A DNA stretch of 64,000 bases from Candidatus Omnitrophota bacterium (GCA_037131245.1 JBAXRK010000001.1:152385-216384), one strand, 5' to 3'. Positions 7,148-57,057 are shown, numbered from the stretch's first letter. Numbers and translations are program-made. Notes: generated by a model from the sequence alone, not told the origin.

Positions 7148-8263
7148 TTAAGCCTTCTTCTCCAGCTCGATGACCTGGATCTTCAAATGCTTGATCTCGT
7201 CTTCATATTTCCGGATGGTCTCATCCATGTGGATAGACTTGCGGAACTCTTCAAATTCTTTGCCCTCAGCGAAAGTGGCAATGGACTCCACCGCCTCCTT
7301 GGTCTTCTCGCCGAGCAGGTCGAGTTTCATTTTGCTTTCCTGGGCGCGCATGCGCACATTGCGCAGCGAATGCTTTTCGTCTTCCAGCGTCTTTTCCATG
7401 CGGGCGATCTCGCCCTCCGCGTTTCTCAGTTTCGCGATCCGCTCGTCAAAAGCCGGATACTCGGCTTTCACGCTTTCCAGCTTGCCCATCTCAAGCTCAA
7501 GTTTCCTGTACTCAAGTTCTTTAGCGGCCAGTTCACTGACTTTGGCGTCGAGCGCGGCTTTGGCCTTTGCCGCTTCCGCTTCTTTACCCGCCAGCTCGGC
7601 GTCCTTCTTAACCAGCGCGTCCTTGAACTTCGCGGCATCCGCGGATGCCTGCTGCAGTTCGCGGTCGAGCCGCTGGCATTCGCCGCTGATCCTCTGAAAT
7701 TCCTTTTCTTTCGACGCGATCTCTTCCGCTTTGGCCAGCGACGCCTGCTGCCCCTGCTGCTGCCCGGCCTGCAATTTTGCCAGTTCGGCTTTCAGCGTTT
7801 GCAGTTCCTGGTCTTTCTGGGTAGCCTCGCTCTTGAGCTTAAGGAAACGCTCATCGTAATCCTTATATTGCGCCGACTTGACGCCCTCGATCTTAAACTT
7901 GTTCTTTAAACCCTCGAGCTCGACGGAAAGAAGCTGCGCTTCCTGTTCCTTGATCATGAGTTCATTGGCCTTAACTTGCAACTCGATGGAACAGCGCTTG
8001 GCTTCTCCCGCCGCCTGCTGCACCTCGGCGTCCTTGCGGGCCGCTTCCGCGCTTTTCTGCTCAAGCTCCACTTTCCGCCGCTCGGCATCAACCGTCAGCA
8101 GGTCGATCTGTCGCTTGAATTCGATCGCCTCGGTATTGGCGGCGCTAAGAAGTTCCTCCGCCTTGGCCACTTCCTTATATAGGCGCACCACGTTCTTCAG
8201 GATGAAGAACAGCCCGCCAAAAAGGAAAACGATGTAAACAATTAGAATGATCGGACTCGACAT
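7148..8263 (-). CDS. Membrane-anchored long coiled-coil protein (mad-type coiled-coil class, tentative)
   Basis: N-terminal TM SPIILIVYIVFLFGGLFFIL. The remaining ~330 aa are heptad-like E/K/A/Q-rich sequence. Confidence 0.7.
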   Translation of the reverse strand: MSSPIILIVYIVFLFGGLFFILKNVVRLYKEVAKAEELLSAANTEAIEFKRQIDLLTVDAERRKVELEQKSAEAARKDAEVQQAAGEAKRCSIELQVKANELMIKEQEAQLLSVELEGLKNKFKIEGVKSAQYKDYDERFLKLKSEATQKDQELQTLKAELAKLQAGQQQGQQASLAKAEEIASKEKEFQRISGECQRLDRELQQASADAAKFKDALVKKDAELAGKEAEAAKAKAALDAKVSELAAKELEYRKLELEMGKLESVKAEYPAFDERIAKLRNAEGEIARMEKTLEDEKHSLRNVRMRAQESKMKLDLLGEKTKEAVESIATFAEGKEFEEFRKSIHMDETIRKYEDEIKHLKIQVIELEKKA

Positions 8264-8272: not shown

Positions 8273-8932
8273 TTAAATTTTCGGTTTCCCGGCCCTTAGC
8301 TTACGCAAACGCTCAAGCGTGGAATCCACGCCCTTGGTCTCTTTTTCTTCAACACCGACATCCTTCAGGTTGCTCGTCACCTGCTCCGCCGAATGGGCAT
8401 AGAGCGAGGAGAAATCCACCATCTCATATTCACCCGACTGCTTGAACTCCTCGATGCGCATGGCGCGCGCGGGGCCCGACAGGGTGCCGAGCTCCTTGAG
8501 CATGCCCGAAATACGGTCGGAAAGCTTGTCGCTCACCGCGTCAAGCGAGCCTTTAAGGATCTCGCCCATGTGCAACTTGAAATCATCAAGCGTCATGCCC
8601 GGCCCTGGCCCCGCAAGGGGTGCGCTTGGCGCAACAGGGGCGGGCGGCGGAATAATAGATGCCGGCACGGACGCTGTCGAGGTGATCTCCGGCACTACTA
8701 AACGGACCACCGGCGCCGGTGGCGGCGGCGGGACCCTCGGCTCCGCTTTTTTGCGCGCCAGGCGCTGATTGGTAATAGCGATCAAGCCGAGCAATTCATC
8801 GAGCGAATAATCAACGGTCGAGACTTCCTGGTCCAGGTCGCGGCGCCGCACATGCACATCCTCCAGCCGCCGGGCCAGGATGGGGACGGACGCGATCAGG
8901 TTATCAATATCGGTTGCAGCCGGTGCGCTCAC
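8273..8932 (-). CDS. Hypothetical protein with proline-rich linker
   Basis: The ORF track start at 8968 (non-ATG) overlaps the actin-like gene by 40 nt. An in-frame GTG at 8932..8930 overlaps the upstream TGA (GTGA) and is preceded by GGGGAGGAAAGA, so I prefer 8273..8932. PPPPPAP / PPPAPVAPSAP tracts. Confidence 0.6.
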   Translation of the reverse strand: MSAPAATDIDNLIASVPILARRLEDVHVRRRDLDQEVSTVDYSLDELLGLIAITNQRLARKKAEPRVPPPPPAPVVRLVVPEITSTASVPASIIPPPAPVAPSAPLAGPGPGMTLDDFKLHMGEILKGSLDAVSDKLSDRISGMLKELGTLSGPARAMRIEEFKQSGEYEMVDFSSLYAHSAEQVTSNLKDVGVEEKETKGVDSTLERLRKLRAGKPKI

Positions 8933-10452
8933 TCTTTCCTCCCCGCTTCGATCGCGTTGAACAGGCAACCCCGCACAACACTGGTGAACGGCTCTTTGGC
9001 GTGGACGACCCGGCCGACCTCAAAACCGAACTTGGCGGTTTTGACTTCCTCTTTGACCACATCGAGAAAACCGGGCACCATCGACGACCCGCCAGCGAAA
9101 ACAATATCCACCGGGTCTTTGAATCGCGGCGTACCGGTGCTGCGGCCGAGCACCTGGGACATGCTCTCGATCAAATAATGGACATAGTTGCGATAATAAA
9201 TGGCGATGGCTTCTTCTTCGCGGGTTTTGGGGGTCACAATGCTCATCCCGTGCTCTTTGATGGAACACACCCGGCTCATGGTAACGCCCAGCACTGTCGC
9301 CGCGCTTTTGTCGATCCAGTCGCCGCCGCGCGTGATCGAGAACGACAGGACCGGTACAGATTTGAACGACGCGCAAATGTTCACCATCCCCGCGCCGCAG
9401 GAAACGCCGATACCGGTAAAGTCCGACTCTTCCATCTCCGAGAGGACCACCGCGTAACCTTCATCGATGACCAGCGGCGTAAAGCCGATACTTTTTAGGA
9501 TCCCCTCAAAAACACCCCGGTGATAAATAGTATCCTGATCGCGGTCAATGGGCTTGGCCGGCACGGAGAAACAGCACACTTCGCCTGGAACGCGCGGCGT
9601 CCACATAATGTTCTGCGCCAGAAGTTTGATGATCGGGATGGACTCGGCTTCGGAGGGGTTCATGATCCCCATGTTCATGGTGCGCTGCGTTTCGCGCCCG
9701 AAAATGTCCGCGAGCTCGAGTGCCATCGTGCCCAGGACGAAAAGCTTATCGCCCATGGCCACATACTTGACCTTGAGTTTAGTCAGCAGTTCTTTGGTGG
9801 ATGTATCGCAGCGGACGGAAAGGAACGCATTGCGCTCATTTTTCACGAACACGCGCTTATTTTCAACTTCGCGCCCGGCCACCAGATAAGCGGTGCCAAG
9901 GTCGAGCCCAACCCCCAGGCGGACATCCGTGTGGGCTTGGGTCTCGTCGCCCGAATCAGGCAGGTTTCCGCTAGCTGCTTCATCGGCCTCCACCTCGATA
10001 CGGCCTTCCTCATTCTCGCCGATCTCGGGGACTTCTTCTTTAACGATCTCGACCGCGACAGGCCGCCGTTCAACCGGCTTCGGTTTTGGAGCCGGAGGGG
10101 GCGGAGGAGGTGGAGTCTTAACGGCTGTCCGCGCCGTGAACGCGGCACGTGCCGCGGCCAGGCGCTCGGCATTCGACATCTTCGGGCGTTCGGCCGGTTC
10201 TTCTTTTTCGAAGAAGCGCGGCGGCGGGCCGACATCCAACCCCGCGGCTTTGTCGCGCACATACTGGTTAATAGCCCGCAACTTGGCGTGCATTTCTTCA
10301 ACGGAAATATTCTTGGCGGACTGATACTGGGAGGGGCTAAGTTCTTGTCCGCGCTCGGGTTGCGCTCCTGCCGTAAGCGTGGAATACTGCTTGATCTTGT
10401 CGTTTATTTTCGAAAGGCGTTCCCGAACTTTTTGCAGTTCATCGTCGACCAC
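8929..10452 (-). CDS. Actin-like ATPase (MamK/Mad28 class) with ~175-aa N-terminal coiled-coil and proline-rich extension
   Basis: The C-terminal ~330 aa are colinear with the neighbouring 330-aa paralog. Motifs GLDLGTAYLV (phosphate 1), GIGVSCGAGMVNI (phosphate 2), IVFAGGSSMVPGF (adenosine). N-terminal linker PPPPPPPAPKPKP. Confidence 0.8.
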   Translation of the reverse strand: MVDDELQKVRERLSKINDKIKQYSTLTAGAQPERGQELSPSQYQSAKNISVEEMHAKLRAINQYVRDKAAGLDVGPPPRFFEKEEPAERPKMSNAERLAAARAAFTARTAVKTPPPPPPPAPKPKPVERRPVAVEIVKEEVPEIGENEEGRIEVEADEAASGNLPDSGDETQAHTDVRLGVGLDLGTAYLVAGREVENKRVFVKNERNAFLSVRCDTSTKELLTKLKVKYVAMGDKLFVLGTMALELADIFGRETQRTMNMGIMNPSEAESIPIIKLLAQNIMWTPRVPGEVCCFSVPAKPIDRDQDTIYHRGVFEGILKSIGFTPLVIDEGYAVVLSEMEESDFTGIGVSCGAGMVNICASFKSVPVLSFSITRGGDWIDKSAATVLGVTMSRVCSIKEHGMSIVTPKTREEEAIAIYYRNYVHYLIESMSQVLGRSTGTPRFKDPVDIVFAGGSSMVPGFLDVVKEEVKTAKFGFEVGRVVHAKEPFTSVVRGCLFNAIEAGRKE

Positions 10453-10470
10453 AGCCTTCAGCCTCTTTTA

Positions 10471-11463
10471 TTATTCGTCGGCTTCGCTCAATCCCGCCAG
10501 CAGACAACCACGGGCCGTCGCGTAAAGGGGCTCATCGGCCAGCCGGACATCAGCGATATCGATCGGCAATGTCACCTTCTTGAGCTCTTCCTTGAAGACG
10601 TCAACGAATCCGCCGATCATACAGGACCCGCCGGCACACACGATATCGATCGCCTCGGGAAATTGCGGCATTGATTCAGCTTTTTCGAACTTGTTCTTAA
10701 TGTTCACCAGCGTATAGTTGATCAGATTGCGGTAATAGATGCAAACCGCCTCTTCTTCGCGGCCATTGGGCTTGTGGATATTGATGCCTTTTTCCTTGAT
10801 CGCCGTCGCGCGGGTGGTCTTGATGCCCAAAACCTGCGCCACGTTGCGGTCGATCCAGTCGCCGGCGCGACTGGTGGCGAAACTGATCGCGGGGATCGTG
10901 CGGTACGATACGCAAATGTTGAACATGCCGCCGCCGCCCGAAATGCCGATGCCGGTAAAATCCTTGTCTTCCAGCGACGCGAAAACGACCGCGTGGCCTT
11001 CATTCATGGGCTTGGGGTTATAGCCCAGGTTCTTCAGCGCGCCAACAATGACGCTGGTGTGATAAACGATATTGAACGTCGCGTCCACCGGATCGGCGGG
11101 GATCGAAAAATAACACAGCTGATTCTTCACGTCGGGCTTGCCCAGCACCGCTTCGATCAAAAGGCCGAAGATCGGCACCGCGTCCGCTTCACCCGGGCTC
11201 ATGACGCCATCCGACATCGGGCGGCGCACGACCTTGTTCATGATATTCGCCAGCTCAAAGGCGGAATCGCCGAGCACATACACCTTATTGCCCATTTCAG
11301 CGTACTGCACTTTCTGCTTCTTGAGCATGTTCTTGGTGAATGAATTCGCTTCGATGTCCAGGAAACAATGGCGCATGAGCTTCAGCTTGATCTTGCCGTC
11401 AGCTCCCTGCTCGGCCCCGACCAGGTTCATTGTCCCGACGTCCAACCCTTTGACTTTACCCAT
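10471..11463 (-). CDS. Actin-like ATPase (MamK/Mad28 class)
   Basis: GLDVGTMNLVG, GIGISGGGGMFNICVS, IVCAGGSCMIGGF and the C-terminal ARGCLLAG motif match the actin/MreB/ParM fold signature order. Confidence 0.8.
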   Translation of the reverse strand: MGKVKGLDVGTMNLVGAEQGADGKIKLKLMRHCFLDIEANSFTKNMLKKQKVQYAEMGNKVYVLGDSAFELANIMNKVVRRPMSDGVMSPGEADAVPIFGLLIEAVLGKPDVKNQLCYFSIPADPVDATFNIVYHTSVIVGALKNLGYNPKPMNEGHAVVFASLEDKDFTGIGISGGGGMFNICVSYRTIPAISFATSRAGDWIDRNVAQVLGIKTTRATAIKEKGINIHKPNGREEEAVCIYYRNLINYTLVNIKNKFEKAESMPQFPEAIDIVCAGGSCMIGGFVDVFKEELKKVTLPIDIADVRLADEPLYATARGCLLAGLSEADE

Positions 11464-11490: not shown

Positions 11491-12304
11491 TTATGCCGCG
11501 ACCGGTTGTTTCGTTCCAGTCTTGTAATAATGGCCCCGGGCGCGAGCGCGGGTGTCCGCCAGCATCAGGCGGATCTCGTCCAAACTCTCCTTGGCCTTCT
11601 CCAGCTCATGCTGATAACGATCGCGCTCGGTGATGACGCTGCTAAGCTCATTATCGGACTTTTCCAGCTTGCCGGCGACGCTTTCCTTCTCGTCTTCCAG
11701 CAAAGAGATCTGGTGATGAAAACTCTGAATGGTTTTGTTCGCGCTGGAGAGCTCAAGCTCGATCTGCTCCACGCGGGAATCGCGGCTTTCGCATTCTTTT
11801 TCGAGCGCGGCCACTTTATTCTCGCCGTCCTTGATCAGCGCGTCACGCGCCTCAAGATCTTCCTCGAGCGACTTGATCTTGCCAACGGTATCGAGCCGTT
11901 CGTTCTCCAGGAACTCCAGCTCGCTGCTGAGCTCTTCCTGGGAAACCAGAAGGCCCTTCATCTCTTTAATTTTGGCTTCGGCCAGCCCGGCTTTTTCTTC
12001 AGCCTTGGCGACTTTTTCCTTAAGGTGATTGATCTCTTTTTCCTGGGCATCCTTCAGGCTGAAGGCCGCGTCCAGCTGCTTTTCCAGGTCGCCGATGATC
12101 TCAAAAACGCTCGCCTTCTCTTCGTCGGGAGACATCATGTACTTGGTGGCTTCCTTGACCTGCCTGACCGCTGTGCGAATGGAGCTTTTAGCTTCCACCG
12201 CCGGCGCTGCCGAGCCGGGCCGCGCTGAAGACGTCCGGAGTGTTGACTGCAAAAGAGGATTATCGATAAGCCTTCCCCTTCTTGAATCCGTGCCCCTGCC
12301 CGCG

Positions 12305-12327
<23 letters not shown>
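11491..12327 (-). CDS. Coiled-coil protein with basic disordered N-terminus
   Basis: N-terminal 60 aa are R/S/G/A-rich. The centre is long heptad-like E/K/L sequence. Basic tail RARARGHYYKTGTKQ. Overlaps the ParA-like gene end by 23 nt. Confidence 0.7.
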
Positions 12328-13063
<736 letters not shown>

Positions 13064-13370: not shown

Positions 13371-13559
13371 TTACGCCTGGGCGTAACCCTCGTAAAATGA
13401 TTCCTTGGCGTCATCGATGACCGCGCTGACTTTGTCGCCGATACCGGAAACAGAGCCCTTGACCTTCTTGATAAGGCCCGGATTCTGCTTTTCCAGGATC
13501 TTGTAACCGACCACACCGATAAAAGCCACTGCCACAACTGTGAGTAATCCCTTAATCAT
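13371..13559 (-). CDS. Small membrane-anchored protein
   Basis: 62-aa ORF with an N-terminal hydrophobic helix LLTVVAVAFIGVVGY followed by an amphipathic tail. Confidence 0.5.
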   Translation of the reverse strand: MIKGLLTVVAVAFIGVVGYKILEKQNPGLIKKVKGSVSGIGDKVSAVIDDAKESFYEGYAQA

Positions 13560-13604: not shown

Positions 13605-14726
13605 CTATTTCTTCTCGCGGCCGAACGATGTCTGATGGTCCCGCCACCAGTACCGCCACCCTTCGATCGCGTCGTCTTTCGCTTTCTTCGACGCGGAAAC
13701 CTTGAAATCAAAATCTTCCTTGGTGATCTTCTTAAGCGCCGCGGAGGCGCTCTCCTGCACCTCATCGGAAGGATCGCTGAGGAGTGAGATCAACGCCGAG
13801 ATCGCCATATGGCTGCGCAGCGTACCCACAATCCCCGCCGCCGATTTGCGCACGCCGGGGTCAATATCATGAAGAGATTTTAGCGCGAACGGCAAACAGC
13901 GCTCGCTGAAAGACCAGCACAGGCAATTTAAGATCTGCCGGCGCACCTCGTGGTTCTTGTCTTTGATCAACGAGGTGAGATAGCCGAACGCCTCTTCATC
14001 ATTATATTTTGAAATAGCGCGCAACGCCGCCAGGCGGACACCGGTATCCCCGTGAGAAAGATAATCCGTGAACAGCTGCTTCGGCAAGCGGGTTTCCGCG
14101 CCGATCGCGCCAAGGGCGTTTAATATCTCGATGGTCTGCAGCGCGTCCTGCTCACTGGCGAGAACCTGCCTGAGGCCGGCGATCATCGTCGGACGCGACA
14201 GTTTTTTGATCTCACCGAGCGCTTCCATGCGCTGCACCTTGCTTGATGAACGCAGGTCGCGGAAATAAATTTCGGCCCGGACCTGCTCCGACTTGCTCGC
14301 GAACTGCACCCCTTGCAAAACATTATCCTGGCTGACGATCCTGGCCGGAGCGGCAACCTCCGCCACGGGCGCAACCGGCGCCGCGGGCGCTACAACATCA
14401 ATATGCCGAATGATCGGCGCAACCGTCGGCAGTGACGCCTTGGGCGCTTCAACGGCAACGGCAGGAATGACCGGCGCGGCAACCTTGACCGGTTTGGCGC
14501 AGGGCATGCTCAAAAGATTTTTAAAGAAACAAGGCTTCGGTGCCGCGGGCTTAACGGCAGCCACCGGCGCGGACGCCGCGCGCGCGGGCCTTGACGACGG
14601 AGAAAGATACTTGAACTCTTTCTCCAAAGAGCGGACGGTCGAACCTAGAAAACGGGCAAAATCATTCGGCACGGCTAAAAGTCCTCTGGTTGGCATAATG
14701 ACCCTTTTCTCGTAAACCATTTGCAT
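13605..14726 (-). CDS. HEAT-repeat (PBS-lyase type) protein, Mad23-like class (tentative)
   Basis: The C-terminal half has repeated units ...GDTGVRLAALRAISKY..., ...DKNHEVRRQILNCL..., ...DIDPGVRKSAAGIVGTL..., ...DPSDEVQESASAALKKI... The N-terminal half is Ala/Pro/Val-rich. Confidence 0.75.
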   Translation of the reverse strand: MQMVYEKRVIMPTRGLLAVPNDFARFLGSTVRSLEKEFKYLSPSSRPARAASAPVAAVKPAAPKPCFFKNLLSMPCAKPVKVAAPVIPAVAVEAPKASLPTVAPIIRHIDVVAPAAPVAPVAEVAAPARIVSQDNVLQGVQFASKSEQVRAEIYFRDLRSSSKVQRMEALGEIKKLSRPTMIAGLRQVLASEQDALQTIEILNALGAIGAETRLPKQLFTDYLSHGDTGVRLAALRAISKYNDEEAFGYLTSLIKDKNHEVRRQILNCLCWSFSERCLPFALKSLHDIDPGVRKSAAGIVGTLRSHMAISALISLLSDPSDEVQESASAALKKITKEDFDFKVSASKKAKDDAIEGWRYWWRDHQTSFGREKK

Positions 14727-14955: not shown

Positions 14956-15260
14956 GCTTTCAAGTCCTTAAAAAAAGTCTTCACTTCGCGGCCGACGATC
15001 CCCGAAACCCGCCCCACGCAAAAAGCCGCGTCCCCGATGAGGTCCACCGGGGTAACATCCTTATTGTTATCCTTAAGCTGCTGTTTCATGTCCTTGAACA
15101 TCGCCACCGTTTCATCGGCGATCTTTTTTCCTTTTTTGCCATCTTTGCCGTCTTCAAGGATAATGTCCGCCACACGGTCAGCCCCGCGCGACAAGCGCTT
15201 GCCGATACCGGCCACCGACTTTTTGATCGCTTGCTTCTTGCGGGCTTTTTTAACGCTCAT
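14952..15260 (-). CDS. Small lysine-rich protein
   Basis: 102-aa ORF MSVKKARKKQAIKK... 4-nt overlap with the upstream HEAT gene. Confidence 0.55.
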   Translation of the reverse strand: MSVKKARKKQAIKKSVAGIGKRLSRGADRVADIILEDGKDGKKGKKIADETVAMFKDMKQQLKDNNKDVTPVDLIGDAAFCVGRVSGIVGREVKTFFKDLKA

Positions 15261-17152
15261 ACCGTGGCTGCCTTTTTAGCGGTCTTCGCAGGCTTCGAGG
15301 CCTGCGGGGTCTTTGCGGGCTTCTCCGTTTTGACGGGGATCACCGCGACAGGTTCTTTTTCCATATTAGCGTATTTCAGGCGCATGTCGCGCAGAAAACG
15401 CGGCCTGGTATAACTTTCTTTCAGCATGATCTTCCACTGACGGACCGCGCGGGCACGCTCAACTTCAGGCGCCCCGCAATCATAGCCCAGGTCGGTGCCG
15501 GTCATGAGCAGCAACGCCGAGATAGCTTCTTTGCGCACCTTGATGTTCACCGACTCCAAGAGTGGCACGGTGCTCACAAAAGAAAAATGATTCGACATCA
15601 TTCCCAGCTTGCGCACAGCAATGCGCGCGACCATCTCATCGTTGTCGCGCGACAGGCGGGCGAGAGCGGTCGCGTCCGGCTCATTGCCATTATGGTCCAA
15701 ATGATTGACGATAAAGCGGCGGACATTCGCGTCGCGGTCATTGACGGCGGACACGATCACATGCTTGGATTCATCGGAGTCAAGCTTGACGAGCCCCATC
15801 ATGCCGGCCAGGCGCATGGATGAGCTCTCGTCCGTAATAAAGCGGCGGTACAGATCGACCATCGTCGGATAATCCAGCTTGCCCAGCAAATTGATGAGCT
15901 GCCGGCGCATAAAGACCTCGGAACCCCTGACCAACTCGTAAAGGTAGGGCACCACGCGGCGCGGCGCGTTGCGGAACAGCGTGTGCAAAATGGACAGCTT
16001 CTCGTTCTGGTCCACCGCTTCACTGAGCAGCTTGCGCGCGCCCGTCTCAAAAAGGCCGTAATCGAGTTTCTCGACCTGATCATCGCCCCCGTTGGTGTCG
16101 TCCGAGTCGTCGTCCGCGACTTCTTCCGCGTCCTCTTCAACCGAAGCTTCTTCCTGTAGCTCTTGCGCGGCGGATTCTTCGGCTAAAGCTTCCTCAAATT
16201 CTTCCTCGACTGGAAGAGGCTCTTCGATAACCTCTTCAGACTCCGGCAAGGCCTCTTGCGAACGCATGACCACCTGCGGCTGCGCAAGCCCCGCGCGAAC
16301 ATCCTCGGCGTAAACCGATTTGATGTTATTAAAAAGGTCCACCACCTCGCCGATCAGCCCGTCAATGCGCCGGGACGTTTCCGCGGCGTCGAGTTCCAAT
16401 TCCTTCAAAAAATCCTCTTCGGGTTTCCAGACCATATTGTCCTTATCTTCCGCGAAAAATTGTTTTTTCTTTTCCATAACCAGGCGGATCGCCTCCTGTT
16501 TCTTCTCCATCAACGCAATAGCCGCCCGGAACTTTTCATCGACGGCGGACTGGCAGACAGCGGTCTTGTCACCCGTCGAATACAAAAGGCCGACGGTGAT
16601 GCCGTCATTGAAATCATTGCGGATCTCGCGCAATTTCCTTAAATTCACATGATGCTCGATGAGCAGTTTGGTATACGGCTCGATCTGGCCGCGGCGCTCA
16701 AAGCCCAGATTACGTGTATCACGGCGTTCCACTGTTGGCTCTTTAACGGCCTGCGCGGGCGCTTCAACCGCCTGCTGCATGGATGGCAGCGCGTTAGCCA
16801 GGACATTCCCAACACCTTTGATGACGGCCGCCACCGCGTTCTTTTTAGGAGACGCTTTAACCGCCACGGCCGGCTTAGCCTGTTTTTTCACGACCGGCAC
16901 CTGAACCTTGGCCTTACGTTTCACCATCACAAAAGGATCGAGCCTGGGTTTGCGGTCAGAGATCTTCCCAACCACGACATCCCGGATCAGTCGCTTGGCC
17001 TCCGCGGCCAGCGCCGGATCTTCATACTCAACAAAGTAAGAGATCCCGCCGGATTGAATGTTCTCATACAACAAACGCCCCAACGACGTGTACAGCGAAT
17101 CGCGCTGCGTATCGCACTCTTTTAAAAGGTCCTGTTTCTTTTTGATCGCCAT
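15257..17152 (-). CDS. HEAT-repeat protein with central Glu/Asp-rich acidic tract
   Basis: 631 aa. Acidic tract EEVIEEPLPVEEEFEEALAEESAAQELQEEASVEEDAEEVADDDSDD. C-terminal HEAT-like units (DESSSMRLAGMMGL, DRDANVRRFIVNHL, DNDEMVARIAVRKL, NIKVRKEAISALL). Confidence 0.75.
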   Translation of the reverse strand: MAIKKKQDLLKECDTQRDSLYTSLGRLLYENIQSGGISYFVEYEDPALAAEAKRLIRDVVVGKISDRKPRLDPFVMVKRKAKVQVPVVKKQAKPAVAVKASPKKNAVAAVIKGVGNVLANALPSMQQAVEAPAQAVKEPTVERRDTRNLGFERRGQIEPYTKLLIEHHVNLRKLREIRNDFNDGITVGLLYSTGDKTAVCQSAVDEKFRAAIALMEKKQEAIRLVMEKKKQFFAEDKDNMVWKPEEDFLKELELDAAETSRRIDGLIGEVVDLFNNIKSVYAEDVRAGLAQPQVVMRSQEALPESEEVIEEPLPVEEEFEEALAEESAAQELQEEASVEEDAEEVADDDSDDTNGGDDQVEKLDYGLFETGARKLLSEAVDQNEKLSILHTLFRNAPRRVVPYLYELVRGSEVFMRRQLINLLGKLDYPTMVDLYRRFITDESSSMRLAGMMGLVKLDSDESKHVIVSAVNDRDANVRRFIVNHLDHNGNEPDATALARLSRDNDEMVARIAVRKLGMMSNHFSFVSTVPLLESVNIKVRKEAISALLLMTGTDLGYDCGAPEVERARAVRQWKIMLKESYTRPRFLRDMRLKYANMEKEPVAVIPVKTEKPAKTPQASKPAKTAKKAATV

Positions 17153-17170: not shown

Positions 17171-17785
17171 TTATGCTTCTTTAACTTCTTCCGTGATCTG
17201 CGCGATCTCCTGCTCGAGCTCGGCATTCGACGGGGAAACTTGCTCGACTTTAACAGCTTCCTCTGCGGCCGGTGCCTCAACGGGCGCTTCCACCTCCGCG
17301 GCGGGAGCCACGTCAACATCCTTCACAAACTTCTCCAGCCTTGATTTGGTCTTGCGAGCACCCTTAACCTTACTCTTGGCCTTGGCAACCGTCGTGGCAG
17401 CCGCTTTGGCAGCGCCGCGCTCGGGCTTAACAGAGGTCATGCCGGCCTTGAACGAATCGGTCATGTCGGCGGTGCTTTTCTTGACGATCTCGGTGACCTT
17501 GCCGTACACGTCCGCCGTGGTCTCACTGACCTTCTCGCAGAATGACTCTGTCACTTTCAAAACTTTCTTCCAGGGCTCGCTGTCAGCCGCTTTGCGTAAA
17601 CCGGCCGCCTTGCTAAGTCCCGACACCTTCCCCTTAACCTTCTTGCACAAAGCGCCGGTGCCATAAGAGACTTTTTTAACCACATTGCCCTTAACGACTT
17701 TACCGGCTTTCTTTGCCACCACCACTTCCTCGACCTTGGCTTCCGCCGCGGCCTTAACTGCCTGCTTAGCTCTTTTTGTGACCAT
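17171..17785 (-). CDS. Lysine/alanine-rich low-complexity protein
   Basis: 204-aa ORF, K/A/V-rich with an acidic C-terminal tail (ELEQEIAQITEEVKEA). Confidence 0.5.
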   Translation of the reverse strand: MVTKRAKQAVKAAAEAKVEEVVVAKKAGKVVKGNVVKKVSYGTGALCKKVKGKVSGLSKAAGLRKAADSEPWKKVLKVTESFCEKVSETTADVYGKVTEIVKKSTADMTDSFKAGMTSVKPERGAAKAAATTVAKAKSKVKGARKTKSRLEKFVKDVDVAPAAEVEAPVEAPAAEEAVKVEQVSPSNAELEQEIAQITEEVKEA

Positions 17786-18959
17786 TTTTGGTATCCTTCT
17801 TTCTTTCCGGCATCACTTTGCCTAATGCTTTTTCCGCTGCTTTTTTAACGCTATCTTCTTTATCCGACAATAGCTCCTTAACGACCCGAAGCGAACCTTC
17901 GGGCTTCACGATCGACACCATCTCAATGAGGCTGATACGCACATACGGGCTTTTATCCGCCTTCGCCGCTACCGCCTTGGCCACGCCGTCCTTACCGTAA
18001 TAAATACCAAGGTAAGTCACCGCCAGGCCGCGGATATGTTCATTCACATCCTTAAGCAAACGCTCCAGGATCGCGCCGTTCTTCGGGCTCACGTGCGTGC
18101 CCAGACCTTTAAGCGCCGCCACCCGCACCGCTTCCTCGGGATCGGCCAGGCCCAGCTCAAAATAACCTTCCGCATCGGCATCTTTCATTCGGGTGACACT
18201 TTTAATGACCGAAAGCCGGATGCGAACACTAGGGTCCTTCAGCAGGAACTCATACGCCCGGCGCAACACCGCCTTGCTGGAGAGGTGCGCGATCTGGCCG
18301 ATGCCGATCTCGCGCTCGCGCTCTTCGCCGGACTTGAGCAATTTCAAATTATTTTCAAAGATCCTTTTATCCGCGTCCGACGTGAAGTCCCCGGTATGAA
18401 GAATGTCCTCCAAGGCGTCCCGTGACGGCATGTGGGGCACGGCCACGGCTTCCTCGATCGCGACCTCTTCCTTGACAACACGGCCGATCTGGTCCTCTTC
18501 GTAATTGTCAACCTTGACCGTCACCTCTTCCGCCGCTTCTTCCGGCGTTAGAACCGGCACCGCGGGCGCCTCTTCTGCCTTTTCAACAAGCATGACAGCG
18601 GTGATCATCGGCTCCTTAACGCGCGGCTTCGGGGCCTCTTCCACTTCTTCAACCTCAAAAGTCCCTTCGGGTTCCTCAACCTCCGCGACTTCCTCGACTT
18701 CCTCGACCGCTTCTTCCTCCAAGGCCTCCTCAACTTCTTCTTCCTCATCGGCGGCATCGTCAAGCTTCTCGATGCGGTCCTCGAGATAATTCATCAAGGT
18801 GAGCAGGCGGTCGACCTCTTTCTTCTCGGATTCGCCCTCGAAGGTGTAACGGAACCTGACATCCTGCGTGCGTGATAACTCAAAAAGCTTCTCGCCGAAC
18901 AGGAAGATCAGTTTTCTCTGTTTCTGTTCCAACTCCCTAAGCTGCTGCTCCATGTTCAC
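17766..18959 (-). CDS. HEAT-repeat protein with N-terminal acidic tract
   Basis: 397 aa. Acidic tract DDAADEEEEVEEALEEEAVEEVEEVAEVEEPEG. HEAT-like units (DPSVRIRLSVIKSV, DPEEAVRVAALKGL, DVNEHIRGLAVTYL, DKSPYVRISLIEMV, DKEDSVKKAAEKAL). Confidence 0.75.
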   Translation of the reverse strand: MNMEQQLRELEQKQRKLIFLFGEKLFELSRTQDVRFRYTFEGESEKKEVDRLLTLMNYLEDRIEKLDDAADEEEEVEEALEEEAVEEVEEVAEVEEPEGTFEVEEVEEAPKPRVKEPMITAVMLVEKAEEAPAVPVLTPEEAAEEVTVKVDNYEEDQIGRVVKEEVAIEEAVAVPHMPSRDALEDILHTGDFTSDADKRIFENNLKLLKSGEEREREIGIGQIAHLSSKAVLRRAYEFLLKDPSVRIRLSVIKSVTRMKDADAEGYFELGLADPEEAVRVAALKGLGTHVSPKNGAILERLLKDVNEHIRGLAVTYLGIYYGKDGVAKAVAAKADKSPYVRISLIEMVSIVKPEGSLRVVKELLSDKEDSVKKAAEKALGKVMPERKKDTKNGHKKS

Positions 18960-25168: not shown

Positions 25169-25360
25169 TTATTTGATCCCCAGCTTCTGCAGGATGAGCA
25201 TCATCGGGCACCAGTTGGTGAATGCCGACTGCAGCAAGTTCGCGCCAATAAAGGCCGTGAACCACAGCCACAACGGGCTGACGAAATGAGCCAGCAGCAA
25301 ACTGATGAGTAAAAAAGTACCCGCAATACCCCGTAAGACTCGTTCCATAATATCCCCCAT
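25169..25360 (-). CDS. DUF2892 (YgaP-like) small membrane protein
   Basis: 63 aa, two hydrophobic helices, and ...ANLLQSAFTNWCPMM... typical of that family. Confidence 0.6.
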   Translation of the reverse strand: MGDIMERVLRGIAGTFLLISLLLAHFVSPLWLWFTAFIGANLLQSAFTNWCPMMLILQKLGIK

Positions 25361-28300
25361 TACTTTTGTTTCATCATCATGTAATAAATGACCGGAATGG
25401 CCGTGCGCGACAGAAGCGTGGACGCCACTTCCCCCGCGATCAAAGCCAGCGCGAGCCCCTGAAATATCGGATCGAATAAAATGACCGACGCCCCCACCAC
25501 CACCGCGGCCGCGGTCAGCAGCATCGGGCGGAAACGCTTGGCCCCGGCATCGACCACCGCCTCTTCCAGCGGCATGCCTTCCCGCCGGCGTAACTCGATA
25601 AAGTCCACCAGGATGATCGCGTTACGCACCACGATACCGGCGCCCGCGATCATGCCGATCATGGACGTCGCGGTAAAGAACGTGCCGGTCATCCAATGCG
25701 CCGGCAGAATACCGATCAAAGTGAGCGGAATGGGGAACATGATGACCAGCGGCTTTGAGAACGACTGGAACCAGCCGACCACCAACGCGTAGATCAAAAG
25801 AAGGACGATCCCGAACGCAATGCCTAAGTCACGGAACACTTCAAAGGTCACTTGCCACTCGCCGTCCCATTTTACCGACCATGTGTCACCGCTATCGGGC
25901 ATGGATGTAAAAAGTTGGTCGACTTTTTTATCCGCGACGAAAGGCGCGCCTGACGGCGGCGTTAGCGCGTCGATTTTCGGCTGAAGGCTCATGATCGCGT
26001 ACACCGGACTTTCCAAAGAGCCCTGAACATCGCCGGTCACATAGGTGACCCGCATCAGGTTCTTATGGTAAATGACCGGATCTTTGAACCCCTCTTCGAT
26101 CGTCACCAGATCGCGCAAAGCAATGCGATTGCCATCACGTGACAGGACCGTCAGCTCCAAAACGTTATCCAGCGACCGGCGCTTTTCCTGAGGCAGGCGC
26201 AGCACGATCTCGACCGGCTCATTTTGGCCGTCCAGATGCGCCAGGTCGGCGGCATTACCTTTTAAACTTTCCGTGATCAGGGCCGCCACCTTGCTCGTGG
26301 CGATCCCATTAAGGAAAGCCTTCTGCGTTTCGATCCGCAACCGGTAAAGCTTTTCAGGTTTGGCCACGAATGTGTCAACATCGGTCACATTCTTATCTGT
26401 ATTAAATAAATTTTCGATATCAGCGGCCAATTTGCGGCGGCCTTCCTCATCGGGACCATAGACCTCGGTCACGAGCGTGGCAAGGACCGGCGGGCCCGGC
26501 GGCACTTCGGCCACCTGCACATGCGCTTTATATTTCGCGGCGATCTCATGGATCTTCGGGCGCACCGACACCGCGATCGCGTGGCTCTGGCGCTTGCGTT
26601 CATCCTTTGACGCCAGATTCACCTGCAAGTCGGCCTGCCAGGGACTTGAGCGCAGGAAATAATGCCGCACCAAGCCGTTGAAATTATACGGCGCATTGAT
26701 CCCCGTGTACGCCTCGATATCACGGACTTCCGGGACGGTCGTCAGATAATCGGCCATTTCACCGATGGCCTGCGCCGTCACCTTGACCGGCGTGCCTTCG
26801 GGCATATTTAAAATAACCTGAAATTCATTCTTGTTATCAAAGGGCAGCATCTTGACTTTCACCGCTTTGAGCGGCACCAGCAGGATCGAGAAAAGCAAGA
26901 GAACGCCCATGCCGACCAGAAAGATCAAGCGGACCTTCGGCTTTTCGATCAGCGGCTTCATATAAGAACGATACAAACGGGTCAACCAGTCCTCGCGCTC
27001 GCCTTCCTCGTGAACTTTAAGCAGGCCCTTCTGGTGAGCACCACCCAAGATCTTGCACGCCGCCCAGGGGGTGGCCACGAAAGCCACCATCATTGAAATA
27101 AGCATTGCCATGCTCGAACCGATCGGGATCGGAAGCATATAAGGGCCCATGAGCCCGCCGACGAAGGCCATCGGCAGGATCGCCGCGATAACAGTCAGCG
27201 TCGCCAGGATCAGCGGCCCCTGCACTTCATTGACCGCGTCGATCGCGACCGCCAGAATGTCCCGCCCGCGATTCTTCGCCATCCGTAGGTGCCGGACGAT
27301 ATTCTCCACATCGACGATCGGATCATCGACCAGGATCCCGATGGAAAAGATCAAAGCAAAAAGCGTGATGCGATTAAGCGTAAAACCCAGGAAATAAAAG
27401 CCCGCCAGCGTGAGTGCCAGCGTCATCGGAATAGCGACCGCCACCACGCCCGCTTCGCGCCAGCCAAGCACCACCGCGATCAGGACACTCACGCCCATGA
27501 CCGCCAGCGCCATATGGAACAAAAGCTCGTTCGATTTTTCTTCCGCCGTGCGGCCGTAATCACGGGTGACCGTATAATCCACACCCGCCGGGATCACGCC
27601 GCCCCGTAAACCGTCGACCTTCTTTAATATCTTCTGGCATAACTGCGCCGCATTGGTCCCTTTGCGCTTGGAAACAGAAAGCGTCGCCGCCGCGAAGGGG
27701 CCCTTATCTGTTACGGTCGACTGCGCGCCAAAACGGATGTTCACGTTCTGGTCGTTTTCATCGGGCCCGTCAACCACCGTCGCCACATCTTTTAGCAGAA
27801 CCTCCGCGCCCTGGCTGATACTGACCACCATATTCTCCAGGTCGGCCTTTGAACGGAAGAACGCATCGGCCTCGACAATGATCGCCCCCCCTTCGGCATC
27901 AACGTTGGCTGATCCACTCTTAACATTCGTCTGCTGGATCAAGGCCGCGATCCCGGAAGGATCAAGCAGGCGCTCTTTTAATTTCGCCTCGTCAAACGCG
28001 ACCCGGAACTGCCGCTGACGGCCGCCGGTCACTTGCGTTTGGGAGACATCGGGGATGACCGACACCTCATTCTGAACATCGGTCACGGTATGACGCAGCG
28101 CGACTTCATCGAGTGTTTTTGAATGGAACGTGAGCGTCAGGACCGGCACATCATCGATCGACCGCACTTTAATGAGTGGCTGGGACCCGCCCGGCGCCAG
28201 GGCGTCCAAATTCGCGCTAACCTTGCTATAAAGCTTGATGAGGCTTTTCTCGATATCCTCGCCCACCTTAAAACGCACCGAGATGATCGCGCCACCGGAA

Positions 28301-29947: not shown

Positions 29948-30300
29948 TGTTCGAGCCCCTTCTCCACAGCTATTGCGACCGTTTCCACGCAACCCACGCA
30001 TGACAATTTCTTGGCGGCGCGGATCTCTTTGCATTTGGTCGACCCGGCAACAGACAGCAGCGAATTCTCACATGCCCGCACCTGCTCGGGATGATCTTTT
30101 TCAAGAAGGACCCTGGCGGCGTACAAAGCGCCGCACTCTCCATCGGGAGCCCGCCCTCCGCCACAAGTCGCGCACTTTTCGACCACGTCCTGCGAGAGGG
30201 CGAACTGGTCCTCAAACGCGCGAACAACCGCCTGGGCACAGTTCAGCTTTTGATACCCCGGCTTACCGATGTAATGCGCTTTGGCTTTCTCGACAGACAT
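29944..30300 (-). CDS. C_GCAxxG_C_C family putative redox protein
   Basis: 118 aa. LNCAQAV..., CATCGGG...ECGALYAA..., KCKEI..., SCVGCVE cysteine pattern of that family. Confidence 0.65.
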   Translation of the reverse strand: MSVEKAKAHYIGKPGYQKLNCAQAVVRAFEDQFALSQDVVEKCATCGGGRAPDGECGALYAARVLLEKDHPEQVRACENSLLSVAGSTKCKEIRAAKKLSCVGCVETVAIAVEKGLEQ

Positions 30301-30301
30301 T

Positions 30302-36701: not shown

Positions 36702-36712
36702 ATCATTTCCCT

Positions 36713-46784: not shown

Positions 46785-46787
46785 AAA

Positions 46788-56648: not shown

Positions 56649-57057
56649 CGGTCCTGCCTCCCTTAAGCTTCATGACCATACGGATCGTACGGCCCCCGTT
56701 CAAAAATGCAACCTCATCCATGGTCTGGCGGATCAGATAAATGCCCCGGCCATGGCCTTTGCCAATATTTTCAGCCGCGGTCGGATCCGGCACCGCATTA
56801 ACATCGAACCCTTTGCCCTGATCGGCCACTTCGATCATGATCTGCTGCGGATCGGCCACGATCGAACAATGAACGGTCAGCGCCTTATTATCCTGATGAC
56901 CATGGCGGATCGCATTGATCAGCGCTTCCTGCAAACAAAGCTGTAAACCAAAAACCGCGTCCTCATTGAGTTTTAGGGGCCCAAGCTGTTTGAGCCAGCC
57001 CTTGATCGCGCCGGGCACTAGTTCCACATCTGAAGGCAGCCGGGCATCAATGGTCAT
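56638..57057 (-). CDS. Anti-sigma regulatory Ser/Thr kinase (RsbW/SpoIIAB-like, HATPase_c)
   Basis: QEALINAIRHG (N-box), DQGKGFD, GHGRGIYLI. Confidence 0.8.
   Translation of the reverse strand: MTIDARLPSDVELVPGAIKGWLKQLGPLKLNEDAVFGLQLCLQEALINAIRHGHQDNKALTVHCSIVADPQQIMIEVADQGKGFDVNAVPDPTAAENIGKGHGRGIYLIRQTMDEVAFLNGGRTIRMVMKLKGGRTGGH

What the first reader, a model, noticed from the sequence alone, without database searches (positions are those of the whole stretch)
8929..11463. Tandem actin-like paralogs, one with a long coiled-coil and poly-proline N-terminal extension
Seen in sequence: two adjacent genes encode colinear actin-fold ATPases with shared motifs (GLD(V/L)GT, G(I/V)S.G.GM.NI, AGG(S)..(I/V)(G/P)GF). 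The second carries ~175 extra N-terminal residues, including PPPPPPPAPKPKP and an acidic stretch. Established knowledge: MamK forms the magnetosome filament. Mad28 is a second actin-like protein in deep-branching MTB. Inference: neither copy looks to me like textbook MamK (no DLGTSHT-type start). The cluster may rely on two Mad28-like proteins, one tethered through its extension.
Basis: partly seen in the sequence, partly recalled or inferred. Interest (0 to 1): 0.55.

Follow-up and report, generated by a model that had tools for sequence, protein, structure and literature searches.

The report
Paired Mad28-type actins in Omnitrophota magnetosome cluster
Two neighbouring genes in a magnetosome gene cluster of an uncultured Omnitrophota bacterium encode actin-like filament proteins of the Mad28/"volactin" type (not MamK); one carries a conserved N-terminal pair of coiled-coil helices on a floppy linker that probably hooks the filament to partner proteins, and the cluster seen here has no canonical MamK.

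Summary
Two minus-strand genes (10471-11463, 330 aa; 8929-10452, 507 aa) are colinear actin-fold ATPases, 42% identical over 320 ungapped residues. The second has 176 extra N-terminal residues.

Both are full-length members of Pfam PF25216 "Volactin" (~266 bits). Both fail the NCBIfam MamK model (27 and 20 bits against a cutoff of 400). Both carry the Ser-for-Asp phosphate-2 motif published for Mad28. They sit in a conserved mad-type module inside a magnetosome gene cluster. No other actin-like ORF exists in the 64 kb.

The extension is not a mis-called start. It has a good RBS and is conserved in about 65 Omnitrophota orthologs. It consists of two heptad helices (residues 2-28 and 51-69) followed by a variable disordered linker. 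The poly-Pro run is lineage-specific, and "long coiled coil" overstates it.

The two genes are deep paralogs. The short one groups with extension-less Omnitrophota proteins and Planctomycetota-type homologs, not with the long one (91/100 NJ bootstraps).

Tandem mad28 copies next to mad29 are already known in Nitrospirota, and Mad28 is already reported in Omnitrophota. So this is a new variant of a known kind. I could not retrieve a reference Mad28 sequence, so direct membership is untested. The tethering mechanism is inferred.

The parts
10471..11463 (-). Short actin-like paralog A (330 aa). The actin fold starts at residue 6, and there is no room for an N-terminal extension: the stop-to-stop frame allows at most 7 more codons.
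   Evidence: Pfam PF25216 Volactin 265.8 bits, matching residues 5-323 of 330. MamK HMM only 26.7 bits against a cutoff of 400. Motifs GLDVGT, NEGHAV, GIGISGGGGMFN and IVCAGGS are intact. Belongs to a clade of 56 extension-less Omnitrophota proteins.
8929..10452 (-). Long actin-like paralog B (507 aa, GTG start): N-terminal extension plus actin domain.
   Evidence: PF25216 266.6 bits on residues 181-500. Identical to the NCBI-annotated protein P0001. About 65 full-length orthologs exist, nearly all from Omnitrophota.
10462..10467 (-). Shine-Dalgarno-like AAGAGG, 9 nt upstream of the GTG start of B.
   Evidence: Read directly from the sequence.
10369..10449 (-). B residues 2-28: conserved heptad helix 1 (consensus D.EL..VR.RL.KIN.KIK.YS).
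   Evidence: AF2 helix with pLDDT 76-84. Hydrophobic a/d positions are 2, 6, 9, 13, 16, 20 and 23; L13 is invariant in 45 orthologs. Mean hydrophobicity 0.04 and hydrophobic moment 0.58.
10246..10302 (-). B residues 51-69: conserved heptad helix 2 (consensus S.EEMRAKLRAIN.Y.R).
   Evidence: AF2 helix with pLDDT 78-84. K57, L58, I61, N62 and Y64 are at least 90% conserved. a/d positions are 51, 54, 58, 61, 65 and 69.
10135..10173 (-). B residues 94-106: third helix (SNAERLAAARAAF), present only in the closest relatives.
   Evidence: AF2 helix with pLDDT 61-74. Aligned only in P0002-P0004.
9931..10134 (-). B residues 107-174: disordered Pro-rich then acidic linker. It includes the poly-Pro run (residues 114-126 = 10075-10113) and a small conserved 'LP' motif (P165).
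   Evidence: pLDDT 36-53. Length and sequence vary among orthologs, and poly-Pro is not conserved. 13 Pro, 15 Asp/Glu, net charge -7. P165 is nearly invariant.
8932..9915 (-). B residues 180-507: actin-fold ATPase domain.
   Evidence: AF2 pLDDT about 90. Best Foldseek PDB match is the MamK filament 5LJV (E = 2.6e-13, TM 0.75 on target, 20% identity), followed by MreB. Motifs GLDLGT, DEGYAV, GIGVSCGAGMVN and IVFAGGS are intact.
11491..12327 (-). Coiled-coil protein (278 aa) immediately upstream of A; candidate Mad25-like partner.
   Evidence: Weak tropomyosin, crescentin and SMC coiled-coil hits. Heptad-rich over residues 129-256. 45-75% identical in six main-lineage Omnitrophota loci (39% in L006), with a conserved LIDNPLLQST motif. 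Always adjacent to the pair.
12305..13063 (-). ParA/MinD-type P-loop ATPase (252 aa); by position, the counterpart of the mad29 gene that precedes mad28 in Nitrospirota.
   Evidence: PF13614 1e-48 and PF01656 1e-27. Conserved upstream of the pair in 7 loci. Literature gives the orders mad28-mad29 and mad29-mad28(I)-mad28(II) in Nitrospirota. That Mad29 is ParA-like is my recollection and was not verified here.
13371..13559 (-). 62-aa protein with an N-terminal TM helix, conserved just upstream of ParA.
   Evidence: TM-like segment at residues 1-23. 51-69% identical in five of the six other loci compared; the L005 copy gave no BLAST hit.
13605..14726 (-). HEAT-repeat protein (373 aa), the first of three HEAT proteins in the module (the others are 15257-17152 and 17766-18959); Mad23-like by domain.
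   Evidence: PF13646 and PF02985 hits. Conserved in synteny. Mad23 is described as a HEAT plus coiled-coil protein.
8273..8968 (-). Protein X (up to 231 aa), overlapping the 3' end of B: helical regions joined by a Pro-rich linker.
   Evidence: No family hit. Always directly downstream of the long actin, 28-52% identical in 7 loci.
7148..8263 (-). Membrane-anchored coiled-coil protein (371 aa): N-terminal TM helix, then a coiled coil of about 340 aa.
   Evidence: Maximum KD hydrophobicity 2.82 at residues 4-22; heptad-rich; SMC-like weak hits. An N-terminal TM helix is present in all 6 orthologs examined, although the sequences are only 20-39% identical.

Best explanation
The two genes encode a conserved pair of Mad28-type actin-like ATPases of the Pfam PF25216 'volactin' family. 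This family is a distant sister of MamK and MreB.

They belong to the chain-organisation (mad) module of an Omnitrophota magnetosome gene cluster. The conserved module is FeoB, FecR, DtxR/FeoA, three HEAT proteins, a 62-aa TM protein, a ParA-like ATPase, a coiled-coil protein, the short actin, the long actin, protein X, and a membrane-anchored coiled-coil protein.

Shown: identity, fold, intact nucleotide-binding motifs in both proteins, conservation of the pair and of the module, physical linkage to mam genes, and absence of any MamK-type gene in the window.

Inferred: both proteins polymerise. The short protein is the plain filament subunit. The long, Omnitrophota-specific paralog co-assembles with it or forms a parallel filament. 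It uses its N-terminal two-helix coiled-coil domain, held on a flexible linker of roughly 70-110 residues, to bind coiled-coil partners encoded next door (the Mad25-like 278-aa protein and/or the TM-anchored 371-aa protein). That would couple magnetosomes or the membrane to the filament and position the chain. This resembles RS-1, where Mad28 needs its N-terminal region and contacts only the coiled-coil protein Mad25. In this cluster the pair would provide all actin-based chain organisation, because no canonical MamK is encoded there.
For: Family: PF25216 at 265.8 and 266.6 bits, full length. Phosphate-2 Ser is invariant in 220/220 family members, while MamK has Asp; this matches the published Mad28 signature SxGxG with connect-1 xExx.

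Relation to MamK: a profile search of the PDB hits only MamK among actins, E = 2e-5. Foldseek's top hit is the MamK filament, followed by MreB.

MGC context: MamA, B, M, Q, P, E, N-like and O-Cter at 33-53 kb, and FeoB, DtxR/FeoA and HEAT proteins at 13-22 kb.

No other actin-like ORF in six frames of the window. No MreB or actin Pfam family near MamB in L026 or L027.

Pair and module conserved in L001-L006, L023 and L024.

Extension: conserved heptad helices plus a variable linker. Low mean hydrophobicity and high moment are typical of coiled coils.

Partners conserved.

Literature: the RS-1 Mad28 N-terminal 38-48 aa are essential and Mad28-specific; Mad28 interacts only with Mad25; the mad28 deletion mispositions chains. 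Mad28 polymerises in vitro and can occur in several divergent copies.
Against: No reference Mad28 sequence could be retrieved, so orthology to RS-1, BW-1 or Nitrospirota Mad28 rests on motifs, context and literature statements.

The diagnostic Ser is family-wide, so it does not separate Mad28 from non-MTB homologs.

The short paralog lacks the N-terminal region that is essential in RS-1 Mad28. Its nearest non-Omnitrophota relatives are abundant Planctomycetota proteins that are unlikely to be all magnetotactic.

One 221-kb contig (DOGZ01) and one 46-kb marine contig carry the module without a MamB ortholog on the same contig.

Published surveys report MamK in Omnitrophota MTB, so a MamK gene may lie elsewhere in this genome.

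No interaction, polymerisation or localisation data exist for any Omnitrophota protein.
Confidence: 0.6

Rival explanations
1. The ParA, coiled-coil and two-actin module is a general Omnitrophota cytoskeletal or segregation system, for example for cell shape or for DNA or organelle partitioning. It merely lies beside the magnetosome cluster and has nothing specific to do with magnetosomes.
For: PF25216 is a large, mostly non-MTB family: 1298 clusters at 50% identity. Close relatives of the short paralog abound in Planctomycetota. Volactin itself is a cell-shape factor in Haloferax. DOGZ01 (221-kb contig) and the marine ACI9CF contig carry the module with housekeeping neighbours (NAPRTase, FtsW) and no MamB on the same contig.
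Against: The long paralog is confined to about 65 clusters, close to the number of Omnitrophota MamB orthologs (about 58), and most named sources are MAGs from magnetically enriched samples. In 5 loci the module is contiguous with FeoB, FecR and DtxR/FeoA, and 8 contigs also carry MamB. HEAT, coiled-coil, ParA-like and actin genes match the known mad23/25/29/28 gene set. In DOGZ01 the module sits 1-10 kb from a contig end, next to mobile or defence-type genes, so the mam genes may simply not be assembled with it.
Confidence: 0.12
2. The N-terminal helices of the long paralog are membrane-binding amphipathic helices, as proposed for the N-terminus of RS-1 Mad28. On this view the extension anchors the filament to the cytoplasmic or magnetosome membrane and is not a protein-protein tether.
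For: Helix 1 is strongly amphipathic (hydrophobic moment 0.58) and basic (net +4 over residues 6-23). The J Bacteriol 2025 paper models an N-terminal amphipathic helix of Mad28 lying on the bilayer and reports curvature-dependent localisation.
Against: Mean hydrophobicity is very low (0.04 and 0.16). Weak PDB profile hits for this region are to designed antiparallel coiled coils and vimentin. The module already encodes a TM-anchored coiled-coil protein that could supply the membrane link.
Confidence: 0.2
3. One of the two genes is the Omnitrophota MamK ortholog and the other is Mad28. On this view the cluster has the usual MamK plus Mad28 complement, only highly diverged.
For: Surveys state that MamK is present in more than 90% of MTB genomes, and one Omnitrophica SAG was found by MamK BLAST; Uzun et al. 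note that 'MamK formed two clades'. MamK is the nearest solved structure to both proteins.
Against: Both proteins score about 266 bits on PF25216 but only 27 and 20 bits on the MamK model, whose cutoff is 400. Both have the Mad28-type Ser in phosphate-2 and lack the Pro of MamK's connect-1 motif. They are 42% identical to each other but only about 22-23% identical to MamK.
Confidence: 0.05
4. The 175-residue extension is an annotation artefact: a mis-called start, or a separate small upstream gene fused by a frameshift.
For: GTG start. A few homologs are annotated shorter (403-417 aa, 64-75% coverage).
Against: The frame is open from 18 nt after A's stop, with an AAGAGG RBS. The very N-terminus (MVDDELQKVRERL...) is conserved in 45 orthologs from independent assemblies; L13 is invariant and the residues of helix 2 are at least 90% conserved, while the linker varies in length but stays in frame.
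Confidence: 0.02

Closest known systems
Mad28 (actin-like protein of deep-branching magnetotactic bacteria; Desulfovibrio magneticus RS-1 DMR_40840, BW-1, Ca. Magnetobacterium)
   Same: Actin fold with a MamK-like structure. Phosphate-2 SxGxG in place of DxGxG, and connect-1 without Pro. Encoded among mad genes (HEAT Mad23-like, coiled-coil Mad25/26-like, and a ParA-like gene in the mad29 position). An N-terminal, Mad28-specific helical region precedes the actin fold (in the long paralog). Omnitrophota is listed among the Mad28-containing phyla.
   Different: The extension of the long paralog is 176 aa, against 38-48 aa in RS-1. It has two conserved heptad helices plus a long disordered linker. 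The short paralog has no N-terminal region at all.
Tandem mad28(I)/mad28(II) next to mad29 in Nitrospirota (Ca. Magnetobacterium cryptolimnobacter XYR/LHC-1, Ca. Magnetomonas plexicatena LBB01)
   Same: Two adjacent Mad28-type genes in or next to the mad29 region of a magnetosome cluster.
   Different: In Nitrospirota the duplication is described as occasional, and those genomes also carry mamK. In Omnitrophota the short plus long pair is conserved across the lineage (at least 26 contigs). The two members are deep paralogs with different architectures, and no mamK is in the cluster.
MamK (Magnetospirillum; PDB 5JYG, 5LJV)
   Same: Magnetosome-cluster-encoded actin-like ATPase. It is the nearest solved structure by both sequence profile (E = 2e-5) and fold (TM 0.75).
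   Different: Only about 22% identity. Fails NF040964 (27 and 20 bits against 400). Ser, not Asp, in phosphate-2. Belongs to a different Pfam family.
Volactin (Haloferax volcanii HVO_2015), founding member of Pfam PF25216
   Same: Same Pfam family, matched over the full length at about 266 bits. A dynamic actin-like polymer.
   Different: Volactin is archaeal, acts in the rod-to-disk shape transition, and is unrelated to magnetosomes. The literature I could search does not connect volactin with Mad28.
MamJ/MamK or MamY-type adaptor systems of Magnetospirillum (an acidic or coiled-coil adaptor linking magnetosomes to a filament)
   Same: Functional analogy only: an acidic, Pro-rich flexible segment plus an interaction domain that connects cargo to an actin-like filament.
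   Different: Here the putative adaptor segment is fused to the actin subunit itself. There is no sequence relationship, and the analogy rests on my own knowledge of MamJ, not on a test.

Membership tests
Pfam PF25216 (Volactin family of actin-like ATPases) | HMM score above the gathering threshold (35 bits) over the full domain | tested here: met
   A: 265.8 bits, residues 5-323 matching profile 3-320 of 321. B: 266.6 bits, residues 181-500 matching profile 3-321 of 321.
MamK (NCBIfam NF040964) | HMM score of at least 400 bits | tested here: not met
   26.7 bits (A) and 19.8 bits (B), partial matches only.
MamK (NCBIfam NF040964) | Phosphate-2 motif DxGxG and connect-1 motif xEPx, as given in PMC10653835 | tested here: not met
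   A has ISGGGG and NEGH; B has VSCGAG and DEGY. That is Ser in place of Asp, and no Pro after Glu.
MamK (NCBIfam NF040964) | Actin-like fold encoded in a magnetosome gene cluster | tested here: met
   Foldseek top hit is 5LJV MamK. mam genes are in the same window.
Mad28 | Actin-like fold with phosphate-2 SxGxG and connect-1 xExx | tested here: met
   The Ser is invariant across all 220 PF25216 members sampled, so this feature is necessary but not discriminating.
Mad28 | Encoded in or next to a magnetosome gene cluster, among mad genes (mad23/25/26/29) | tested here: met
   The module HEAT, ParA, coiled-coil protein, A, B lies 20-40 kb from the MamABMQPE genes on the same strand. Neighbours were assigned by domain only, not by comparison with reference Mad proteins.
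Mad28 | Significant sequence similarity or clade membership with reference Mad28 (RS-1 DMR_40840, BW-1, Mbav, MYR-1) | not testable with these tools
   No reference sequence could be retrieved. An exact-match scan with a native RS-1 primer found no RS-1 contig. RS-1 peptide fragments are absent from all 376 proteins held at that point. AFDB50 was unavailable.
Mad28 | Mad28-specific N-terminal helical region preceding the actin fold (38-48 aa in RS-1, essential for function) | tested here: inconclusive
   B has N-terminal helices, but its homology to the RS-1 region is untested. A has none, with only 5 residues before the phosphate-1 motif.
Mad28 | ATP-dependent polymerisation into filaments, and interaction with Mad25 | not testable with these tools
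   Biochemical property. Here I could only show that the nucleotide-binding motifs are intact.

The most novel reading that the evidence does not exclude
Magnetotactic Omnitrophota organise their magnetosome chain without MamK. They would use a two-component actin system in which a plain PF25216 subunit co-polymerises with a dedicated paralog that has the cargo or membrane adaptor (a coiled-coil hairpin on a flexible linker) fused to its N-terminus. On this reading the filament and the MamJ/Mad25-type adaptor function are merged in one polypeptide. The same 'short plus long' design recurs in a second, independent pair in another Omnitrophota genome (L025), and as coiled-coil plus Pro-linker plus actin fusions elsewhere in the family.
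Probability: 0.2. Interest if true: 0.65.

Novelty: new variant of a known kind. Interest (0 to 1): 0.4.

Why it matters
MamK is treated as a universal core magnetosome protein and is used as the marker for finding magnetotactic bacteria. An entire phylum-level lineage whose clusters contain only Mad28/volactin-type actins would qualify that view. It would also affect marker-based surveys and 'MamK' trees if these genes have been labelled MamK.

The conserved short plus long pair gives a concrete, testable model for how an actin-like filament is coupled to its cargo: an adaptor domain fused to a subunit. It also ties the magnetosome protein Mad28 to the much larger volactin family found in Planctomycetota and archaea, a connection the literature I could search does not make.

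The finding remains modest. Mad28, its presence in Omnitrophota and its duplication in Nitrospirota are all already published.

Tried and rejected
1. Retrieving a reference Mad28. The primers in PMC12713370 are for codon-optimised synthetic genes and so were unusable. RS-1 peptide fragments (MSQEDKA, ANQLNA, ALTEAD and others) were absent from all proteins fetched up. Cluster-member names for 10 representatives gave no 'Mad28' labels.

2. phmmer of A against the PDB gave no hit at E <= 1. Only the profile search reached MamK.

3. Supplements of Lin et al. 2020 and of the J Bacteriol paper gave no locus tags for Omnitrophota MamK or Mad28. A literature search for DOGZ01 or GCA_003528115 found nothing.

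4. Promoter and terminator scans of 7-15.4 kb gave counts no higher than in shuffled sequence, so they are uninformative.

5. Biopython's is_monophyletic gave false negatives for unions of groups. I replaced it with explicit MRCA composition tests.

6. Mis-called start or gene fusion was considered and rejected.

7. Recent tandem duplication was considered and rejected.

8. The + strand ORFs overlapping the two genes (for example 9520-10674) are shadow ORFs of a 56-58% GC coding region and were not pursued.

Full report
**Observation**

The window carries two adjacent minus-strand ORFs. A is 10471-11463 (ATG, 330 aa) and B is 8929-10452 (GTG, 507 aa). A aligns to residues 182-501 of B without a single gap: 42% identity, 65% positives, E = 3e-101.

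B has 176 residues ahead of the phosphate-1 motif, where A has 5. These residues include PPPPPPPAPKPKP (114-126) and an acidic tract.

The stop-to-stop frame of A allows at most 7 further codons, so A cannot have an extension. B's GTG lies 18 nt after A's stop codon and 9 nt after an AAGAGG. NCBI annotates the identical 507-aa product in a Candidatus Omnitrophota MAG, on a 247-kb contig.

**Family identity**

Both proteins match Pfam PF25216 'Volactin' end to end, at 265.8 and 266.6 bits against a gathering threshold of 35, and match no other Pfam family. Against NCBIfam's MamK model they reach only 26.7 and 19.8 bits, where the cutoff is 400.

A single-sequence search of the PDB finds nothing. 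A profile of the family hits MamK (5JYG, 5LJV, 5LJW; E about 2e-5) and no other actin.

An AlphaFold2 model of B has a confident actin fold at residues 180-507 (pLDDT about 90). Its best Foldseek match in the PDB is the MamK filament (TM 0.75 on target length, 20% identity), followed by many MreB structures. So the family is a distant sister of MamK and MreB and not a member of MamK.

Awal et al. 2023 give the motif signature of Mad28 as phosphate-2 SxGxG (MamK: DxGxG) and connect-1 xExx (MamK: xEPx). Both window proteins have it (ISGGGG/NEGH and VSCGAG/DEGY). However, that Ser is invariant in all 220 family members I sampled. It therefore marks PF25216 as a whole and not Mad28 specifically.

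The papers I could search on Mad28 never mention volactin, and the volactin paper never mentions Mad28 or MamK.

**Context**

The window is a magnetosome gene cluster.
- The mam genes lie between 33 and 53 kb: MamE, MamP, MamM, MamB, MamA, MamQ, a PDZ-MamN-like protein, MamO-Cter, further CDF transporters and magnetochrome proteins.
- The mad-type module lies between 7 and 22.6 kb: FeoB, FecR, DtxR/FeoA, three HEAT-repeat proteins, a 62-aa TM protein, a ParA/MinD-type ATPase and a 278-aa coiled-coil protein. Then come A, B, a 231-aa protein X with its own Pro-rich linker, and a 371-aa coiled-coil protein with an N-terminal TM helix.
- Two-component genes (0-7 kb) and a sulfate ABC transporter (61-64 kb) bound the cluster.

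A six-frame scan of the whole window, using real MamK sequence taken from the PDB alignment and a family profile, finds only A and B. The 64 kb therefore encode no canonical MamK.

Two other Omnitrophota mam clusters (L026, L027) show the same core gene order and no MreB or actin Pfam family within 10 kb of MamB.

**Conservation of the pair and the module**

Eight independent loci show the order coiled-coil protein, short actin, long actin, X. These are L001/L002, L003, L004, L005, L006, L023 and L024, from four NCBI MAGs, two JGI metagenomes, one ENA assembly and one Logan assembly. Most also have ParA, the 62-aa protein, the HEAT proteins and, further upstream, DtxR/FeoA, FecR and FeoB.

Partner conservation:
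- The upstream coiled-coil protein is 45-75% identical across the main-lineage loci (39% in the divergent L006) and has a conserved LIDNPLLQST motif.
- The downstream coiled-coil protein always starts with a TM helix, although its sequence is poorly conserved.
- The 62-aa protein is 51-69% identical in five of six loci.

**The extension**

About 65 proteins match B over its full length (40-84% identity, 429-555 aa). Nearly all that carry a source name are Omnitrophota. Alignments of 23 and 45 of them show a fixed architecture:
- helix 1, residues 2-28, with L13 invariant;
- a variable loop;
- helix 2, residues 51-69, with K57, L58, I61, N62 and Y64 at least 90% conserved;
- a linker of very variable length and composition;
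- a small conserved LP motif (P165);
- the actin domain.

The hydrophobic positions follow a clean a/d heptad pattern: 2-6-9-13-16-20-23 and 51-54-58-61-65-69. Each helix contains an L-x-x-I-N signature. AlphaFold2 models both helices at pLDDT about 80 and the linker at below 50.

The poly-Pro run and a third helix (residues 94-106) occur only in the closest relatives. The extension is therefore a real, conserved domain, but it is two short coiled-coil-type helices on a disordered tether and not a long coiled coil.

Mean hydrophobicity is low (0.04 and 0.16) and the hydrophobic moment is high (0.58 and 0.44). That fits a protein-protein coiled coil better than a membrane-inserting amphipathic helix.

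An exhaustive profile search of 1.84 billion representatives finds 1298 family clusters, 443 of them at E <= 1e-30. The N-terminal profile positions are matched in only four of them (P0026, P0077, the partial P0069, and P0233 by inspection).

Unrelated family members independently show a coiled coil, then a Pro-rich or acidic linker, then the actin domain: P0240, P0249 (Planctomycetes) and P0364. Planctomycetota-type homologs carry 20-170 aa of low-complexity N-terminal sequence.

**Relationship of the two paralogs**

In an NJ tree of 220 family members rooted on MamK, three groups appear:
- B falls in a clade of 65 sequences, all with long extensions (median 145 aa).
- A falls in a clade of 56 extension-less sequences.
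- The A clade is sister to about 99 Planctomycetota-type sequences.

With 40 more distant family representatives added as outgroups, A, B and the Planctomycetota-type group are each monophyletic in 100/100 replicates. The smallest clade containing A and the Planctomycetota type excludes B in 91/100 replicates, while A plus B excludes that type in only 4/100.

Mean identities agree: A to Planctomycetota-type 57-59%, A to B 42-43%, B to Planctomycetota-type 46-48%. The pair is therefore not a recent tandem duplication. These are distance-based trees only.

**Is the module magnetosome-specific?**

A search with the window's MamB finds a discrete set of about 58 ortholog clusters, with identity dropping sharply from 46% to 35%. 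Almost all are Omnitrophota, a number similar to that of the long actin.

Against this, the DOGZ01 MAG has a reduced module with housekeeping or mobile-type neighbours. Its contig is 148 kb in NCBI and 221 kb in an ENA assembly, and there is no MamB on it. There the module lies 1-10 kb from the contig end. A 46-kb marine contig has FtsW upstream.

I rate the 'general cytoskeleton' rival at about 0.12.

**Comparison with the literature**

- Mad28 is reported in seven phyla, including Omnitrophota.
- In RS-1, deleting mad28 moves chains off the positive cell curvature, and Mad28 interacts only with the coiled-coil protein Mad25.
- The Mad28-specific N-terminal 38 aa (48 aa in the truncation study) are essential for complementation, and that region is also present in Nitrospirota Mad28.
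- Nitrospirota genomes XYR/LHC-1 and LBB01 have two mad28 genes, listed in LHC-1 as mad29, mad28(I), mad28(II).
- Surveys treat mamK as a core gene and used it to find an Omnitrophica SAG. Uzun et al. remark that MamK formed two clades.

I could not find out which gene was labelled MamK in Omnitrophota.

**Explanation**

The best-supported reading is that A and B are the actin components of the Omnitrophota chain-organisation module.

Identity, fold, intact ATPase motifs, conservation and linkage to mam genes are shown.

The following are inferred by analogy with RS-1 and from the architecture:
- both proteins polymerise;
- B uses its coiled-coil N-domain on a flexible tether to bind the neighbouring coiled-coil proteins, and through the TM-anchored one, membranes;
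- the pair replaces MamK.

The main alternative for the extension is a membrane-binding amphipathic helix (about 0.2).

**Limits**

- No reference Mad28 sequence was obtainable, so membership in Mad28 in the strict sense is untested.
- The trees are NJ only.
- A MamK elsewhere in the genome cannot be excluded.

**Verdict**

The finding is real and correctly read in its essentials. It is a conserved, architecturally distinct variant of an already known system and not a new kind of system. Interest 0.4.

Noticed in passing
L025:8961-11464 (GCA_015228785.1, JADGCU010000029; HQL21 Omnitrophica MAG): A second, different short plus long PF25216 pair in a MAG that also has the A/B-type pair. The short member is 333 aa and has a degenerate phosphate-1 motif (GLYIGT), and its phosphate-2 and adenosine motifs were not recognisable. 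The long member is 487 aa (P0085) and has an unrelated helical N-extension. The pair is flanked by SBP, CysT, CysW, CysA, CHASE2-SpoIIE and a response regulator. The same CysTWA and SpoIIE genes flank the far end of the cluster in this window (57054-63906), but here without a second actin pair.
   Followed up: partly
window 25360-30931: An RND efflux permease (1072 aa), a TolC-like outer-membrane protein (487 aa) and a SAM methyltransferase sit between the mad module and the mam genes. On the HQL27 contig the corresponding stretch not covered by L004 and L026 is only 7.5 kb, which suggests an insertion here.
   Followed up: no
window 32915-36842: Three additional CDF transporter paralogs (MamB/MamM-like at 50-139 bits, far below cutoff), plus a two-CW-domain protein (34006-34914), lie downstream of the canonical MamM/MamB pair at 45873-47687. 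The same extra CDFs appear in L026 and L027.
   Followed up: no
window 42378-44180: A 600-aa protein that fuses an N-terminal PDZ (HtrA-like) region to a MamN/ArsB-type permease (NF040989, 257 bits on residues 168-596). The fusion is conserved in L026 (603 aa, PDZ_2 plus ArsB/CitMHS).
   Followed up: no
window 8273-8968: Protein X, directly downstream of the long actin, also has a Pro-rich linker (PRVPPPPPAPVV...IIPPPAPVAPSAPLAGPGPG) between helical regions in this genome. Orthologs have 2-8% Pro against 9.5% here, so Pro-rich linkers seem to have expanded in several module proteins of this lineage.
   Followed up: partly
proteins P0284, P0286, P0298, P0306, P0346, P0349, P0351, P0353, P0365, P0366, P0372: About 700-800-aa PF25216 family members in which the actin domain matches in two separate stretches (profile positions ~140-330 at the N-terminus and ~316-467 at the C-terminus). 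This implies a large insertion of about 350 aa or a domain fusion inside the actin fold.
   Followed up: no
window 58918-59916 and L001:249-1421: Fic-family (protein adenylyltransferase-like) genes lie at the edge of the magnetosome cluster in the window, and a Fic-like_C/HATPase_c_4 gene lies next to the reduced actin module in DOGZ01, together with AAA_14/DUF4143. These could be mobile or defence-island genes marking rearrangement points.
   Followed up: no
window 11491-12327 (residues ~19-30) and orthologs in L001, L003-L005, L023, L024: The coiled-coil protein upstream of the actin pair has a strongly conserved short N-terminal motif, (R/K)(L/K)IDNPLL(Q/K)S(T/S), ahead of a variable region and the coiled coil. 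It looks like a short linear interaction motif.
   Followed up: partly
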